Part shown: one piece after another, positions 30,001-42,000 of the stretch
Position numbering within the stretch: the first letter of the stretch is position 1
How the letters are laid out: every line of letters begins with the position of its first letter
From: Styela clava
Taxonomy: Eukaryota
Assembly (NCBI RefSeq): GCF_964204865.1
Contig: NC_135258.1
Location: 21,514,001 to 21,578,000, forward strand
Reading direction: 5' to 3'
DNA: 64,000 bases
Position numbers: made by a program

Positions 30001-33000
30001 ACCAGCTTCAATACAAAGTGATCTTATGGGTATCATCTTTTTTCTCGTGTTTCAGCTAAATTGGTGTGAACCGAGTTTCGGTCACGCAAAATTGAAAGTG
30101 ATAACTTACGACTTTCGAGTAAACACACGTCTTTTGTGCAGCGTTGAAATTTCAACAATTTATATCTCGGCATGAGTTATCTTTTGCAACTTTTTACAAT
30201 CACGCCGAACATTAATACTTTCTCAAAAACACGGCTACATTCTCTCAAAATATACTTGCTTCTTTCGCTATCTCTTTCGATACAGGGGAAGCCCCTAACC
30301 GGTGACAGATTTCCCCATTGCCGGAATTCCCCATGTCTCGAAGCATTGATACCGTGCGCCCGCTCCTGTCAGTCTCCAAACTAACTGGAATGTGTGTCAA
30401 CTGTCAACCTATAGAATTATTATTCTTTCTTTATACTGACATACCAGTAACTTGCATTGCACACACCAGACTGGTGGGTACAGGATACTAAGATAGACTA
30501 TGTTTAAATTAGCCAAGCAGTCAGGAGTGTATTCATGAGCATCGATGAAAAATTAAATATCTGAATATTCAGTTGTTAGTGAATAATACATTAATCAAAA
30601 AAAACTTAGAAACTTTCTAGTAAGCTTAGAAAGTATGCTTAGAAAATTACTCTTGGCTATAAATATAGATAGAAAATATACGGAATTATAAATGCAAAAT
30701 ATCACCCATTTTTTAAATTTTATCCATAAGGAAGGTTTCATGAAATTTGGACTCTAATGTCCGAACTGAATGTGAACTCTGAACCAGCAATCGCTTAGAT
30801 CAGTGGTTCCCAAACTTTTTCAAAAAAATTGTCTGACGGACCCCTTGCAATTTTGTTTTTGTTTTGCGGCCCTGTGCACTAATTGACTTAAATAGAACAT
30901 TATCAAAGAAAGACAGAAAGATATCACATAAAACAAGATCACAACAAAAATAAATGCTTCACACGGTGTAGTGCAAAACATATCTTCACCTGCGTTTATC
31001 ACGATAAAATTACATACGATTATCTCAATTTTAATTTTAGAAGACATTTTGAAATTGATAATACAGAGTTGAAAACGTAAAAATATATGCCTACCGTTAC
31101 CGTGTGTCATTGACACCTAAAAACTAAAACGTAGTGCCTTTCTGACTGCGCTATATTTAACGCTATCCACCTTTCGAAACAAAAGCGTAAATCAGCATTT
31201 AGAAACGGAGTGGCATACTTTATCAACTACCTACTGTAATTCTCTCCTATAACAACAAGCATGCAAAAAGGCAGCGCCATCTACACCTCCAAGTGCAGTT
31301 TTAGGTATTTAGCGGGATTTCCAAACAATGGCCGCTATGGCTGAACGGCGCTCCAGAAGCATATGTACCAAGATGTCGCACGACCTGAACCCTAACCGGT
31401 ACACAATACCATGTTCAGGTTGTGCGCCATCTTGGTGCACATAGATTACTTCTGGAGCTCCGGTTAAACCACGGCGACTGACTTTTTAGATGCCCCAAAC
31501 CGGTACCACGACAGCAAATTAAAAAATCATGTCGGGTAAAATTTTGATGCCGTAACCAAGGCATGTCGGATGTATTGGCAGGGCTGCCTGCCCCTGTTGG
31601 TGACAAACAATGAGTAGGTTGGTACTTTTTTTGGTATATTAAACAAAAGTACGGCGCATGACTTTGTTAATATGCCGATAATACTGATTACTAAATTATA
31701 GCGCCATTAAACCATGGCATGAGACGCCGCGGTTTGTTCGTGGCAAGAGCTGTCATAGCTTTGTGACGTCACAATTGGGAAAGCCTAATCGAAACAAAAA
31801 GTGAAGAATCAGTGTCCTCAGCAGAGATTGTAAAGCATCATAAAGCGATAAATGTGTCTTTCCAAATTTAAGCAGTTAATTTTTGCATAATCAAACTGTG
31901 AGCCATTCAACAGATTTCTTTCGCGGACCCTCGGAAAGTACTTCACGGACCCCAAAAGGTCCGCGGACCCTAGTTTGGGAACCACTGGCTTAGATCTATA
32001 TACTGATATATGGATGTAGCCATTTCCACCAGGACATTCCACTTCTACTGGGTTACTATTTCATAGTGTCATAACAGAGTATCATGTGCTTTATGTAGCT
32101 TATTTAGTTGTTCACTAAGCCGAAATTATGTCATTTCCAGTTTTTATTGTGTATTGACTTTATATAACTTTTATAAATTAATTTCACTGTTGCGTGTGTT
32201 GGTCCATTTATTTAAATGGTTAAATTTGAAATTCTTTTTCCAACCAAATTTATCATATTTCTGTATATCTTTCTTTTCCAAAATTTACAGAATGAAGGGT
32301 TGAAATGAATAAATAGTGACAATGCAAAGTGCAACAGACATTCTTAAAGCAGCTGAAGAAGGAGAGATACGTTTGGTGGAGACGCTTCTGAAAATGTATC
32401 CATCTCAGGTATTGGATTACATATGACTAGAATATACATTTTGAAACCATGGCTCGTATTAAATTAATTTCAAATCATTACTAGGTTGATATTCTTCATA
32501 TGGGACACACAGCTTTACATGCAGCTGCACGCAGTGGAAATGTTGATGTTATGAAGACATTGATTCATCATAATCCAAAACCAGATATTGATTTCCCCGA
32601 TTCGAGAGACTGCACACCATTGCATTATGCTGTGAAAGGGTAATTATTTGTTGTTTTCCAATAGTCGTGTATTTGTGTATGGGAACAGTTTTCTAATTTT
32701 TGACGTATATCAGGGTTCGCTAATACTTTGACTAGGTGAATTGATTGATATATATATTTTCAAGTTTTCAAGATCATTGTGCTAAGCATTAAACACATTC
32801 TAACCATCAGACCATCGATTACCCTGCACTGGTTTAGATCTAGTGAGGAATTATTATATCACAGAAGAATGCTGGATTCTTTGCTGTTGCTAGTCAATTG
32901 AGAGTTCCTCCAACATCAAGTCCATATATCTGAAATGAATACTTGTCTAACTATTTCCAAAACAGGCATGAACTGGTAATAAGATCATAGTTTGTCATAT

Positions 33001-39000: not shown

Positions 39001-42000
39001 CAAGTATTCGAGATTCGATCCAAAAAAAATATTCGATTCTGAAATCATCAGGTATTCAAAAAGCCCTAATAATATGTTATTTGATAATATTGTTAATAAA
39101 AAATTGTGTATTAGGAAAATTATAGTAGTACACCTTTGTTTGCAGAAATGTTGTAAATATTGCAAAGAAAACAGCAGGTTTATAAAGTTTGAGCCATGTG
39201 GATGCGTTATATCTTGTTTTGGTAAGTAAAATTTGGTAAGTAAAAACGAGCCTTAAGAACTAGTTAGATGGAACTGCAGTTTTGATGGAATAATACAGCA
39301 GGGTTGGGTGTTTTATACCGGTACCGGTATATATAAATCTTATACCTAAAACAATAGCATATTTGATGATTAATTTCCTTCATTATGTATTAATAATTAT
39401 CGATTATTCTTTATTACTCTGTCATGTTGTTTTCTCTGCGCTCATCTGAGCATTACGTTAATAAGCTAAACTGACTCCTATAATCAGTAATCTCCTTACT
39501 CTCTTGATTTTATTTTGCCAAATTTTATTCCCATTTTTGTTAAAGAATAATTAGTTGATTTTATTTGACGTCATCTGCTGTTGAACTCAGCAAACACGGT
39601 GTCGCTGACACGATGACTCTGGTAGTCTTTCGCGGCCCCGCGTCAATTGCGGAAATATTGTGTGCCTTTCTATTTCAATTGATCTTTTTGTTAGCATTTT
39701 TTTTTTCTTATTACTTGTGTCGCTACAATATTTCATGCACGACGGAAATAAAATATCTGAATCTGAATCTCGAATCTAATGAGGAAGCTAGTATCACAAT
39801 ATGGACATTACCACTGAAGTACACCTTTGAGGTATTAGTGATGACTGGAATTTGAATTGACTGAATAACTGCTCAAAAATTTGAATCCCATGACAGCACT
39901 CATCTTTCTTTTTTTAACCAATGGCTCCTTAATAATGTCACATTTCATCAGGACTATTCAACAATTTTTTTCTCCAGACTGTTTAAAAATTGCTGTCGTT
40001 GTTTGTCTTTTAAATTCAGATTTAGAATAGTATTGCCCCATTATTCTCCTGTTAATTATGAGCAAGCAAATGTATTTTCAATCAATGTGAAAAATCTAAG
40101 TCAGTTGCTTCTGTTTCAAATTCTTTTGAAAAAGTTTGGCAAACCTGGCTGCTTCACGGAATTTGATCCTTTGTTACACTTGATCAAAATTTTGTTATAA
40201 TTCAATCATTTCTCTCTGATCATAAGATTGAAGTCGTTTAAAACTATTCTTTTTTATAAAGAATGTTCCATGAGAGACCATAAATGCAGATGTGAAAAGT
40301 TTATTGAACAACGTTCATTCGATAAAACAACTGAATCAGCGAAATATGCAGAGGAAATTAAATCAATGAGAAAAAGGCTTGAGCAACTAGAGCATTATGT
40401 GAGTTTTATGTCAAATTGGTGCTCTTGCTTGAAAAAAATTTGTTAGCACTTGAAACGCCTGGCTAATATTTTTTTGCTCTTTAAAAACAGGTTGAACAAT
40501 TGGAAGACCAGAAAATCTGCAAAATATGTAGGTATAATCCAGTTAACTGCGCTCTGGGATGTGGACACTTGTTTTGTAAGTCTTGTATAAGAAAAACAAA
40601 AGACTCAGAGACAAGTTTTCCAGAGCAACTTTGGATTTGTGCTAAATGCAGAACACCTTCCAGATATACCAAAATTTACCCTGAGTGGTAATTGGAAGTG
40701 GGCAAACTGTGAGATATAAACAGATCGATGATGTAATAATATACTGACCTAATTTATAATTTAATACTATTTTATATATTTTGCACTTGATTAATCGTCT
40801 TTAGTAACACTCACTAAATTCCAACATATTGAGAGGATTTGGTTCTAATGAAGTATACCTAGGTCAGTGTTTTACAAATTTTCTTGAACTGCTGAATACT
40901 TATTATATCATAAATTGTTTGTGGGACATGTTTCAGATCTTTCAGTAACCATCAAATTAACTAACAATTATCTTGTTCGGTTTTGACATAAAGAAGAAAT
41001 TACGATAGGACCAATCGCTTGAGTTGAAAAAAAGAAGTAACAAATTCAAATTCAGGGCCAAAGTTGCTTGATATGATGAACGCTTGCTTAGATATCGACA
41101 GGGATTCAGGGAAGACACACTAGTAGGCCTAGTTCTTTTTTGACAAGTTCAAAATACACTTCAGAATGATAAAACATGCTGTATGCATTGGCAAACTGCC
41201 AACACCTGGTAAATCTTAACAGCTTACTGAATTTCCCTCTTACGATGGCATGAATCCTGGTCAAGTTTTCAAATTGAAGTCATGATTATTATTTTAAAAT
41301 GTTTCCACGACCTCTGAACTTTGAAAAATTCCCCCTATTTTTTACCATTGACAAATAATTGAGTGTTTTTTCTCAGGGCTGACCTCCGCAACCGTTTAAA
41401 ATATCATAGTAGCTGCCTGTAAAGAGTAGTGACTAGTGACATCTAATTTCAGCGAAGTCTGACCTAACTTTTTGTCGTTTTTGGATTACGGTAATTCAAC
41501 TGAAATAAAGCCCCCCAACATGACAGAGCATTGAGCAAATTTTCCTACAAAAAATGACCGCCAAGTTACTTTATTATTCAAGCTACCATTGTCGTGCAGC
41601 AGAGCTTGCTTAACACCAAGTACATGTGAAAGGTCTTTCACCGGTTGGAAATCACTGCTCTAGGCAACTTGAAAATTTTTGCATCTGTTTATTGAGACAT
41701 AAAGTATTTGTAGCAAAAAAGAAAAGCAATTCAAAAGCAAAAATCCATTACAATAGGTAACAAAAATGTAGTTCTTTCATGAGGATCTTAAGCAGAGCTA
41801 TTGAAACTTGCTCTTTTATGGATGTATAATTGAAAAACATTTCGAAACAGGAATGGGCTGGAAATCTAATTTATTTACAGCATTCTGACAAATAGTTCTT
41901 GCCACTCTCCACTAGACTTTAAGCTCCACAAGGTGTTGATAAACAGAAATAAGACTTTTTTGGTACCGATTGTTGTAACAATATTTTTTAACGTACCATC

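What the first reader, a model, noticed from the sequence alone, without database searches (positions are those of the whole stretch)
32322..40691. Tandem pair of 'mini-Mind bomb' genes: ankyrin + RING + RING without the substrate-binding N-terminus
Seen: two complete 7-exon paralogues of ~300 aa, ~500 bp apart, with identical intron phases but clearly diverged sequence; each starts directly at the first ankyrin repeat. Established: MIB1/MIB2 are ~1000-aa E3 ligases whose N-terminal MZM and REP domains recognise Notch ligands; MIB2 has ankyrin repeats and two RINGs and acts in TNF/NF-kB and cell-death signalling. Inference: motifs YPSQVD...GHTAL, LHYAVKGNQPDA, VKFEPCG..V.C.EC and LE....C.IC...CGH resemble MIB2, so these look like lineage-specific truncated derivatives with only ~3-4 ankyrin repeats. 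They could be retargeted E3 ligases or dominant-negative regulators.
Basis: partly seen in the sequence, partly recalled or inferred. Interest (0 to 1): 0.65.

Follow-up and report, generated by a model that had tools for sequence, protein, structure and literature searches.

The report
Two small ankyrin double-RING ligase genes
Two neighbouring sea-squirt genes encode small proteins with a short ankyrin block and two RING zinc fingers, most likely lineage-restricted ubiquitin ligases that look like the back half of Mind bomb without being shown to descend from it; a tidy but fairly ordinary find.

Summary
On the + strand lie two intact 7-exon genes, 909 and 885 coding bases, 494 bases apart. 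All splice sites are AG/GT and both have intron phases 0,2,0,0,1,0. Gene 1 is the RefSeq protein 'uncharacterized protein LOC120339687 [Styela clava]', 302 aa, so the window is ascidian, not human.

Each protein has about four ankyrin helix pairs, an unconserved linker, RING1, a helical linker, RING2 and a conserved C-terminal tail. RING1 is Pfam zf-C3HC4_3, the IAP/Mind-bomb type, with unusual ligands. RING2 is a generic C3HC4 finger with a 17-19 residue second loop. No MZM or REP domain was found in the protein or upstream.

The Mind bomb reading is only partly supported. The architecture and the RING1 family fit. But the ankyrin exon tested (gene 1 exon 3) matches designed consensus ankyrins best. 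RING2 retrieves no Mind bomb. No Mind bomb sequence could be fetched for a phylogeny.

Only one other protein with this architecture was found (P0002, 40% identity). Most likely these are lineage-restricted single-chain RING E3 ligases, with RING2 catalytic and the ankyrin block binding substrate. Dimer and fold tests failed technically.

The parts
32322..32408 (+). Gene 1 exon 1: start codon and first ankyrin helix pair (N-cap), 29 codons
   Evidence: residues 1-29 of P0001. In-frame TAA 9 nt upstream of the ATG.
32485..32639 (+). Gene 1 exon 2: ankyrin repeat 2 and the start of repeat 3; ends in phase 2
   Evidence: Pfam Ank 44.8 bits, Ank_4, Ank_2. 73% aa and 77% nt identity to gene 2 exon 2.
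33073..33223 (+). Gene 1 exon 3: rest of ankyrin repeat 3 and the C-terminal capping repeat
   Evidence: Pfam Ank_2 E 0.003. Best PDB matches are designed consensus ankyrins.
33323..33430 (+). Gene 1 exon 4: unconserved charged linker, 36 codons
   Evidence: No Pfam match. No match to gene 2. Residues 132-167 of P0001.
33667..33742 (+). Gene 1 exon 5: first half of RING1 (C-x2-C ... PCGC ... C); ends in phase 1
   Evidence: Pfam zf-C3HC4_3 18.8 bits for the half domain. The whole RING1 scores 42.3 bits at 167-210 of P0001.
35099..35217 (+). Gene 1 exon 6: second half of RING1 (C ... C-x2-C) and a helical linker
   Evidence: Helix 216-232 in a low-confidence model.
36357..36569 (+). Gene 1 exon 7: RING2 (C3HC4 with a 19-residue second loop), the tail SRYTK...W, and the stop codon
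   Evidence: Pfam zf-C3HC4 26.6 bits against a cut-off of 21. 100% identical to P0001. Loop length.
37064..37147 (+). Gene 2 exon 1: start codon and first ankyrin helix pair, 28 codons
   Evidence: In-frame TAA 48 nt upstream with no AG in between. PDB hits are ankyrin repeats only.
37356..37510 (+). Gene 2 exon 2: ankyrin repeat 2 and the start of repeat 3; 155 nt, as in gene 1
   Evidence: Pfam Ank_4 47.9 bits, Ank 44 bits.
38159..38303 (+). Gene 2 exon 3: rest of ankyrin repeat 3 and the capping repeat
   Evidence: Pfam Ank_2 22.4 bits, Ank 21.5 bits.
38503..38589 (+). Gene 2 exon 4: unconserved acidic, Ser-rich linker, 29 codons
   Evidence: No Pfam match. Placed by splice signals and phase only.
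39146..39221 (+). Gene 2 exon 5: first half of RING1 (PCGC); 76 nt, as in gene 1
   Evidence: Pfam zf-C3HC4_3 16.4 bits, E 0.008. 52-57% identity to gene 1 exon 5.
40262..40398 (+). Gene 2 exon 6: second half of RING1 (last pair is C-x-C) and a heptad-like helical linker
   Evidence: No Pfam match on its own.
40491..40691 (+). Gene 2 exon 7: RING2 (17-residue second loop, CAKC in place of CPxC), the tail SRYTK...W, and the stop codon
   Evidence: Pfam zf-RING_UBOX 25.3 bits, zf-C3HC4 25.1 bits..
36570..37063 (+). 494-nt spacer between the genes: gene 1 3' end and gene 2 promoter and 5' UTR
   Evidence: No AATAAA or ATTAAA in it. Its three open frames of 30 aa or more have no Pfam match.

Best explanation
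These are two intact, tandemly duplicated genes of the ascidian Styela clava. They belong to a small, lineage-restricted family of proteins of about 300 aa.

Each protein is built as follows:
- about four ankyrin helix pairs;
- an unconserved, probably disordered linker;
- RING1, of the IAP/Mind-bomb Pfam type but with altered zinc ligands and without the usual E2-contact residues;
- a helical linker;
- a C-terminal RING2 with a long second loop and a conserved aromatic tail.

I think they work as single-chain RING E3 ubiquitin ligases. The ankyrin block holds the substrate and RING2 recruits the charged E2. RING2 probably acts as a dimer formed by the helical linker, RING2 and the tail. RING1 is a structural or regulatory zinc module, not a catalytic one.

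This is how the C-terminal half of Mind bomb works. Membership in the Mind bomb family, or descent from it, is not shown.

Shown: the gene structures, the domains, the conservation and the narrow distribution. Inferred: ligase activity, which RING is active, dimerisation, and substrate binding by the ankyrin block.
For: Genes: canonical splice sites and matching phases. Gene 1 equals RefSeq P0001.

Both copies are constrained:
- pN 0.317 against pS 0.643 over six exons, so dN/dS is about 0.28. dS is near saturation, so this is rough.
- There is no rate asymmetry against P0002. Gene 1 alone agrees with P0002 at 23 of 227 sites and gene 2 alone at 18 (p 0.53). 77 sites are invariant in all three.

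Domains: ankyrin and RING matches.

RING2 keeps all eight ligands in gene 1, gene 2 and P0002, and also the Ile in C-x-I-C.
- The MIB1 paper (Results read) names the equivalent Val, the Pro-Ile between the last two Cys, and the Arg after the last Cys as E2 contacts.
- The Pro is present in gene 1 and P0002.
- A basic residue follows the last Cys in gene 2 (R) and P0002 (K).

RING1 has His or Tyr in place of that Ile or Val. It has no Pro, and Gly or Glu follows the last Cys, in all three proteins.

In MIB1 only the last RING transfers ubiquitin, the coiled coil plus last RING dimerise like BIRC7, and RING1-2 are dispensable (bioRxiv 10.1101/2024.03.01.582834, sections 3-4 read).

In the alignment of 34 rows (the two window exon-7 peptides plus 32 of the 45 RING2-like hits), most rows, like these proteins, end 9-18 residues after the last Cys, mostly with a hydrophobic or aromatic end.

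Short form: in-frame stops lie just upstream of both ATGs. P0002 starts at the same place on a 1338-base contig.
Against: No activity, expression or interaction data exist.
- Gene 1 has Asp where the linchpin Arg or Lys would be. Gene 2 has Ala where the E2-contact Pro would be. Each RING2 is therefore imperfect.
- RING1's His ligand is Cys in both window genes. Its last pair is C-x-C in gene 2 and P0002.
- The whole-protein model was useless (mean pLDDT 42).
- The RING2 tree of 47 rows did not even recover gene 1, gene 2 and P0002 as a supported group.
- Gene 2's protein was not found in the protein collection, so its expression is unconfirmed.
Confidence: 0.6

Rival explanations
1. One reading: the genes descend from MIB2 by loss of the MZM/REP half and most ankyrin repeats. 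They act as retargeted ligases, or as dominant-negative partners of Mind bomb.
For: - The domain order is that of the C-terminal half of MIB2 (paper Introduction read).
- RING1 is in Pfam zf-C3HC4_3.
- The best aligned stretch against the MIB1 ANK chain 8v0e starts at that chain's residue 25, near its first repeat. This is co-linear with the start of these proteins.
- Exon 1 of gene 2 also touches that first repeat, at E 2.1, which is not significant.
Against: - The ankyrin similarity is generic. Designed consensus ankyrins outrank everything, and MIB1 ranks 17th.
- RING2 is not of the zf-C3HC4_3 type by Pfam's cut-off.
- No Mind-bomb-length ankyrin protein is among the 45 RING2 profile hits.
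- No MIB1 chain was listed with either RING in the PDB.
- RING1 of P0002 is closest to BIRC7, MEX3C and XIAP.
Confidence: 0.2
2. The proteins are not ligases. Both RINGs are degenerate zinc scaffolds, and the proteins act as ankyrin adaptors or as inhibitors that bind E2s or other RING proteins without transferring ubiquitin.
For: - RING1 has non-standard ligands and lacks the E2-contact residues.
- Gene 1's RING2 lacks the basic linchpin and gene 2's lacks the Pro.
- RING2's second loop is 17-19 residues.
Against: - All eight RING2 ligands and the Ile of C-x-I-C are kept in all three proteins, and the tail SRY...W is conserved.
- Many active RINGs lack one of these contacts (general knowledge, not tested here).
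Confidence: 0.12
3. Gene 2 is a decaying or unexpressed duplicate, and only gene 1 is functional.
For: - Gene 2's protein was not returned by the two word-based searches that could have found it.
- Its RING1 ends in C-x-C and its RING2 has CAKC.
Against: - It has an intact 885-nt reading frame over seven exons with canonical splice sites.
- It does not evolve faster than gene 1 relative to P0002 (18 against 23 sites, p 0.53).
- The C-x-C is shared with P0002, so it is not a gene 2 defect.
- One search did not return the window's own gene 1 protein either, so that library is incomplete for this species.
Confidence: 0.08
4. The two units are parts of one longer transcript or one fused protein, or form an operon-like co-transcribed pair.
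For: Only 494 nt separate them, and there is no AATAAA or ATTAAA in between.
Against: - RefSeq ends gene 1 at the stop at 36567-36569.
- Gene 2's exon 1 is closed by an in-frame TAA 48 nt upstream with no AG in between, so nothing can be spliced in frame onto it.
- The spacer's open frames have no Pfam match.
- Co-transcription without fusion is not excluded.
Confidence: 0.05

Closest known systems
Mind bomb E3 ligases MIB1 and MIB2
   Same: - Ankyrin repeats are followed by zf-C3HC4_3-type RINGs, a helical or coiled stretch, and a last C-terminal RING.
- In MIB1 only the last RING is catalytic. It dimerises with its coiled coil, and the earlier RINGs are dispensable (bioRxiv 10.1101/2024.03.01.582834, sections 3-4 read).
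- I infer the same division of labour here.
   Different: - There are no MZM or REP domains.
- There are about 4 ankyrin helix pairs instead of the 10 repeats reported for MIB1.
- RING2 falls below Pfam's zf-C3HC4_3 cut-off and has a 17-19 residue second loop.
- RING1 has Cys in place of the His ligand.
- No sequence-level link to MIB beyond generic domain similarity was found.
IAP-type RINGs (BIRC7/Livin, XIAP, cIAP1/2) and MEX3C
   Same: - They are the closest solved relatives of RING1: BIRC7 E 0.013, MEX3C 0.014, XIAP 0.024.
- They are also among the best for the first half of RING2.
- They are C-terminal RINGs with a short tail.
   Different: - They have no BIR or KH domains here.
- The matches are weak.
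- RING1's ligand pattern differs, and RING2 has the long second loop.
Plant XB3/XBAT31 ankyrin-RING ligases
   Same: N-terminal ankyrin repeats and a C-terminal RING in a small protein. There are weak hits to Pfam RING_XB3-XBAT31 (19.7 bits for gene 1 exon 7; 33 of the 45 RING2-like hits match that model).
   Different: The score is far below the cut-off of 50 bits. XB3/XBAT31 proteins have a single RING (recalled, not tested), whereas these have two.
Generic RING-HC fingers with a long second loop (TRIM31, LNX1/2, RNF141 among solved structures)
   Same: They are the best PDB matches over the full RING2: TRIM31 E 5e-4, LNX 5e-4, RNF141 E 2.8e-4 for the first half.
   Different: There is no B-box, coiled coil, SPRY or PDZ context. 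The E-values are marginal.
P0002, an unnamed 339-aa protein from a 1338-base public contig
   Same: It has the same architecture from the first to the last domain, at 40% identity over the whole length. It is the only hit below 1e-10 in the representative library.
   Different: - Its RING1 has C-H-H where the window genes have C-G-C.
- It has a longer linker before RING2 and a longer tail.
- Its organism is unknown to me.

Membership tests
Mind bomb (MIB1/MIB2) | N-terminal MZM region (MIB/HERC2, ZZ, MIB/HERC2) | tested here: not met
   - No such Pfam family in P0001 or P0002 at E 0.01, nor in any exon peptide at E 1.
- None in the 14 + strand open frames of 40 aa or more in 29255-32321, nor in the 3 in the spacer.
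- In-frame stops lie just upstream of both ATGs.
Mind bomb (MIB1/MIB2) | REP region (tandem Mib repeats) | tested here: not met
   The same scans found nothing.
Mind bomb (MIB1/MIB2) | Long central ankyrin domain (10 repeats in the MIB1 crystal structure, per the paper's Results) | tested here: not met
   The ankyrin models cover only residues 9-111 of P0001. There are four helix pairs up to residue 125 in the low-confidence model.
Mind bomb (MIB1/MIB2) | C-terminal RINGs of the zf-C3HC4_3 type, the last one catalytic | tested here: inconclusive
   - RING1 scores 42.3 bits (P0001) and 35.4 bits (P0002) against a cut-off of 27.
- The last RING scores 25.3 and 22.3 bits, below the cut-off.
- Catalysis was not tested.
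Mind bomb (MIB1/MIB2) | Grouping with MIB1/MIB2 in a phylogeny of the ANK and RING regions | not tested
The RING2-only tree of session sequences was unresolved.
Mind bomb (MIB1/MIB2) | Dimer of the coiled coil plus the last RING | not testable with these tools
   Complex prediction never returned a ticket, and its cap then read as used.
zf-C3HC4_3 RING (Pfam PF13920; IAP, Mind bomb, MEX3 and others) | Score above Pfam's gathering cut-off | tested here: met
   RING1 scores 42.3 bits at 167-210 of P0001. Caveat: the fourth ligand is Cys, not His, in both window genes.
RING-HC finger (Pfam PF00097 zf-C3HC4) | C3HC4 ligand pattern and a score above the cut-off of 21 | tested here: met
   RING2 as the exon 7 peptide scores 26.6 bits (gene 1) and 25.1 bits (gene 2). 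All eight ligands align. Within whole P0001 the score is 20.0 bits, just under the cut-off.
Ankyrin repeat proteins | Ankyrin repeat models above the cut-off | tested here: met
   Ank_2 67.3 bits and Ank 57.8 bits in P0001. Exon 2 of both genes scores 44-48 bits.
XB3/XBAT31 ankyrin-RING ligases | RING_XB3-XBAT31 model (PF24921) above the cut-off of 50 | tested here: not met
   19.7 bits (gene 1 exon 7), 12.3 bits (gene 2 exon 7) and 17.3 bits (P0002).

The most novel reading that the evidence does not exclude
The tandem pair may be a division-of-labour heterodimer born by duplication, comparable in logic to MDM2/MDMX. Gene 1's RING2 keeps the E2-contact Pro but has Asp at the linchpin position. 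Gene 2's RING2 keeps a linchpin Arg but has lost the Pro. Both keep the same C-terminal SRYTK...W tail, which could pair them. On this reading the family is a tunicate-restricted offshoot of the Mind bomb back half in which the ankyrin stub, not MZM/REP, selects substrates.
Probability: 0.1. Interest if true: 0.5.

Novelty: new variant of a known kind. Interest (0 to 1): 0.28.

Why it matters
If the mechanism is right, these genes are a natural minimal ankyrin-RING ligase. They keep the part of the Mind bomb plan (ANK, RING1) that was dispensable for Notch signalling in the MIB1 study, together with a catalytic-looking last RING. They could show what an ankyrin block plus an inactive RING contribute to a ligase.

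They also illustrate how narrow some animal E3 families are. Only one other protein of this build was found in the searches made. Beyond that, the finding is a routine lineage-specific gene duplication in an invertebrate genome.

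Tried and rejected
- **Structure of the whole protein (A2, 2 rows):** mean pLDDT 42, not usable, so no fold search was made.
- **Complex prediction, two copies of residues 200-302 of P0001 with zinc:** queue full or no usable answer. The cap then read as used. There is no verdict of any kind, so dimerisation stays an inference.
- **Cluster and Atlas look-ups:** The Atlas held neither P0001 nor P0002. 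The names and taxa of P0002 and of the other hits stay unknown.
- **Word-based searches with the RING half of P0001 and with gene 1 exon 7 against longer proteins:** both found only P0001 itself.
- **Maximum-likelihood tree of RING2 from 47 rows (76 columns):** 32 of 44 inner branches were open, and gene 1, gene 2 and P0002 were not grouped. It is uninformative.
- **Rfam on the whole window:** no match.
- **Literature:** no paper on this gene or family was found.
- **Rejected, human contig:** the window is Styela clava.
- **Rejected, hidden upstream MZM/REP exons next to gene 1:** the neighbour upstream is a cyclin gene on the other strand, and the + strand frames in between match nothing.

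Full report
**What the window is.** The window has about 35% G+C and holds no N. The exon 7 peptide of the first gene is 100% identical to the NCBI protein 'uncharacterized protein LOC120339687 [Styela clava]', 302 aa, seen on a 23.5-Mb contig.

**Checking the observation.**
- Reading the + strand, I placed seven exons for each gene.
  - Gene 1: 32322-32408, 32485-32639, 33073-33223, 33323-33430, 33667-33742, 35099-35217, 36357-36569.
  - Gene 2: 37064-37147, 37356-37510, 38159-38303, 38503-38589, 39146-39221, 40262-40398, 40491-40691.
- Every intron has AG and GT at its ends. The coding lengths are 909 and 885 nt, and the phases are 0,2,0,0,1,0 in both genes.
- All seven gene 1 exon peptides sit one after another in P0001.
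- tblastn of the 14 exon peptides against the window finds only these two copies. The paralogous exons pair up, except exon 4 (no match) and exon 6 (weak).
- Identity per exon is 46, 73, 42, 21, 52, 32 and 44%.

**How the searches were done.** The window's genes were searched exon by exon. Whole-length comparisons used the public record P0001 as one search returned it, and its relative P0002.

**Are there upstream coding exons?**
- A TAA lies in frame 9 nt before the gene 1 ATG.
- A TAA lies 48 nt before the gene 2 ATG, with no AG in between. No upstream exon can be spliced in frame onto gene 2's first exon.
- Between the upstream neighbour and gene 1 there are 14 + strand open frames of 40 aa or more. 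The 494-nt spacer holds three of 30 aa or more. None matches a Mind bomb domain or any Pfam family above its cut-off.
- The upstream neighbour is a cyclin gene on the opposite strand. The downstream neighbour is a pyruvate-carboxylase-like gene, also on the opposite strand.
- P0002 comes from a 1338-base contig and starts at the same point of the first ankyrin repeat.
- The short form is therefore well supported for gene 1 and plausible for gene 2.
- An upstream phase-0 exon that skips exon 1 cannot be excluded from sequence alone.

**Domains.**
- Ankyrin models cover residues 9-111 of P0001 (Ank_2 67.3 bits).
- The low-confidence model shows four helix pairs up to residue 125. This amounts to an N-cap, two full repeats and a C-cap.
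- Exon 4 is an unconserved charged linker.
- RING1 is split by a phase-1 intron. It matches zf-C3HC4_3 at 42.3 bits (P0001) and 35.4 bits (P0002) against a cut-off of 27.
  - Its fourth ligand is Cys in both window genes (PCGC) and His in P0002.
  - Its last pair is C-x2-C in gene 1 but C-x-C in gene 2 and P0002.
- RING2 keeps all eight C3HC4 ligands and matches the generic zf-C3HC4 model at 26.6 and 25.1 bits (cut-off 21). It stays under the zf-C3HC4_3 cut-off.
  - Its second loop is 19, 17 and 17 residues long in gene 1, gene 2 and P0002.
  - It is followed by a conserved tail, SRY(T/K)(K/R)...W.

**Relatives.**
- A profile of the two exon 7 peptides, run against 1.84 billion representative proteins, gave 45 hits at E 0.001 or better. 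Only one was below 1e-10: P0002, 339 aa.
- P0002 has the same architecture and is 40% identical to P0001 over the whole length.
- Of the 45 hits, only two carry ankyrin repeats: P0002 and the 332-aa P0028. No protein of Mind bomb size and build was retrieved.
- A word-based search with the P0001+P0002 profile gave 139 hits among 5160 candidates. In the 120 listed, only P0001 and P0002 combine ankyrin with zf-C3HC4_3.
- Gene 2's protein did not appear.
- The window's own gene 1 protein did not appear. The libraries are therefore incomplete for this species, and absence of more copies proves little.
- The genome-wide copy number stays unchecked.

**Is it Mind bomb?**
- In favour:
  - The domain order is the same as in the C-terminal half of MIB2.
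  - RING1 belongs to the matching Pfam family.
  - The best alignment to the MIB1 ankyrin chain 8v0e begins near that chain's first repeat.
- Against:
  - That chain ranks 17th, among generic ankyrin proteins.
It matches designed consensus ankyrins best, with no MIB1 in the best 60 of 308.
  - RING1 of P0002 matches BIRC7, MEX3C, XIAP and cIAPs, and none of its 10 hits is MIB1.
  - RING2 matches TRIM31, LNX, AMFR, BIRC7, RNF141 and XIAP. No MIB1 chain is among the 60 listed of 97 and of 109 hits. I cannot tell whether the MIB1 RING3 crystal chain is in that copy of the PDB.
- A RING2-only tree of session sequences was unresolved.
- The defining N-terminal domains and the long ankyrin domain were tested and are absent. 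I therefore do not file these genes as Mind bomb family members. 'Works like the back half of Mind bomb' remains my working model.

**Mechanism.** The MIB1 study (bioRxiv 10.1101/2024.03.01.582834; abstract, Introduction and Results read) reports four relevant points:
- Ubiquitin transfer relies only on the last RING.
- The coiled coil plus that RING dimerise like BIRC7.
- RING1-2 and the ankyrin domain are dispensable in a Notch reporter assay.
- The E2 contacts are a Val after the first Cys, a Pro-Ile between the last two Cys, and an Arg after the last Cys.

Mapping these positions by eye onto one search gives the following.

| Position | RING2 | RING1 |
|---|---|---|
| After the first Cys (Val in MIB1) | Ile in all three proteins | His or Tyr |
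| Pro between the last two Cys | present in gene 1 and P0002; Ala in gene 2 | absent |
| After the last Cys (Arg in MIB1) | Arg in gene 2, Lys in P0002, Asp in gene 1 | Gly or Glu |

I therefore infer that RING2 is the E2-binding finger and RING1 is a structural or regulatory module. I infer that the helical linker, RING2 and the aromatic tail may dimerise, and that the ankyrin block binds the substrate. None of this was tested. The dimer prediction never ran.

**Selection.** Over the six alignable exons pN is 0.317 and pS 0.643 (dN 0.413, dS 1.46, near saturation). At 227 sites alignable to P0002:
- gene 1 alone agrees with P0002 at 23 sites and gene 2 alone at 18 (p 0.53);
- 77 sites are invariant in all three;
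- gene 1 and gene 2 agree against P0002 at 38 sites.

The duplication is old, both copies are constrained, and gene 2 is not decaying faster than gene 1.

**Literature.** No paper on this gene or on a short ankyrin double-RING family in tunicates turned up:
- Styela clava + genome + ankyrin;
- mind bomb + ankyrin + RING + ascidian;
- 'MIB2-like' + ankyrin, 0 papers;
- Styela clava + E3 ubiquitin + RING;
- a five-term search;
- the LOC number, 0 papers.

Only listings were seen for those. PMC5345843 on Drosophila Mib2 was seen as abstract and outline only. Supplementary files were not consulted and might list these genes in expression tables.

**Verdict.** This is a real, correctly delimited tandem pair of small ankyrin double-RING genes of Styela clava. 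It is a lineage-restricted variant of the ankyrin-RING ligase theme. The Mind bomb label fits as an analogy and is possible, but unproven, as ancestry. Interest is modest.

Noticed in passing
window 25194-29254, - strand: A cyclin gene lies divergent from gene 1. An exon at 28994-29254 matches Cyclin_N (E 3e-12) and one at 25649-25921 matches Cyclin_C (E 2e-11). G+C rises to 0.39 in 30001-32000, between the two genes, which suggests a shared promoter region.
   Followed up: partly
window about 44014-49419, - strand: A pyruvate-carboxylase-like gene runs convergent with gene 2. PYC_OADA pieces lie at 44014-44295 and 46187-46531, and a weak HMGL-like piece at 46705-47010. Several other long frames there gave no Pfam hit on their own.
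   Followed up: partly
window 62113-62391, + strand: An open frame matches the C-terminal half of NCBIfam TIGR01926, 'peroxidase-related enzyme' (E 8.7e-18, profile positions 102-178 of 178). It had no Pfam hit at E 0.01. NCBIfam is the library NCBI uses to name bacterial and archaeal proteins, so whether this is an ordinary animal gene or something acquired was not examined.
   Followed up: no
window 21873-22685, - strand: A 270-aa open frame, very long for DNA of 35% G+C, has no Pfam or NCBIfam match.
   Followed up: partly
window 7237-7536, - strand: An exon-like frame carries an immunoglobulin I-set domain (E 1.5e-9).
   Followed up: no
window 33791-34177 and 37760-37962: Inverted-repeat elements lie inside introns. 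One has nested arms of 62 nt (97% complementary) and 54 nt (93%), in gene 1 intron 5. One has 42-nt arms (95%), in gene 2 intron 2. They look like small foldback or MITE-type insertions. No family was assigned.
   Followed up: no
window 36570-37063: There is no AATAAA or ATTAAA in the 494 nt between the gene 1 stop and the gene 2 ATG. The first AATAAA after gene 2 is 813 nt downstream, at 41504. Gene 1 may use a variant signal, or the pair may be co-transcribed.
   Followed up: no
window 32485-32639 and 37356-37510: Exon 2 is much better conserved between the paralogues than the other exons: 73% aa, 77% nt and pS 0.50, against pS 0.64-0.83 in exons 1, 3, 5 and 7. This could reflect stronger constraint on the ankyrin core or an old gene conversion.
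   Followed up: no
protein P0028, 332 aa: This is an unrelated-looking small protein with ankyrin repeats and two RING-like fingers. Both fingers appear to lack the second Cys of the first pair. Short ankyrin double-RING builds may have arisen more than once.
   Followed up: no
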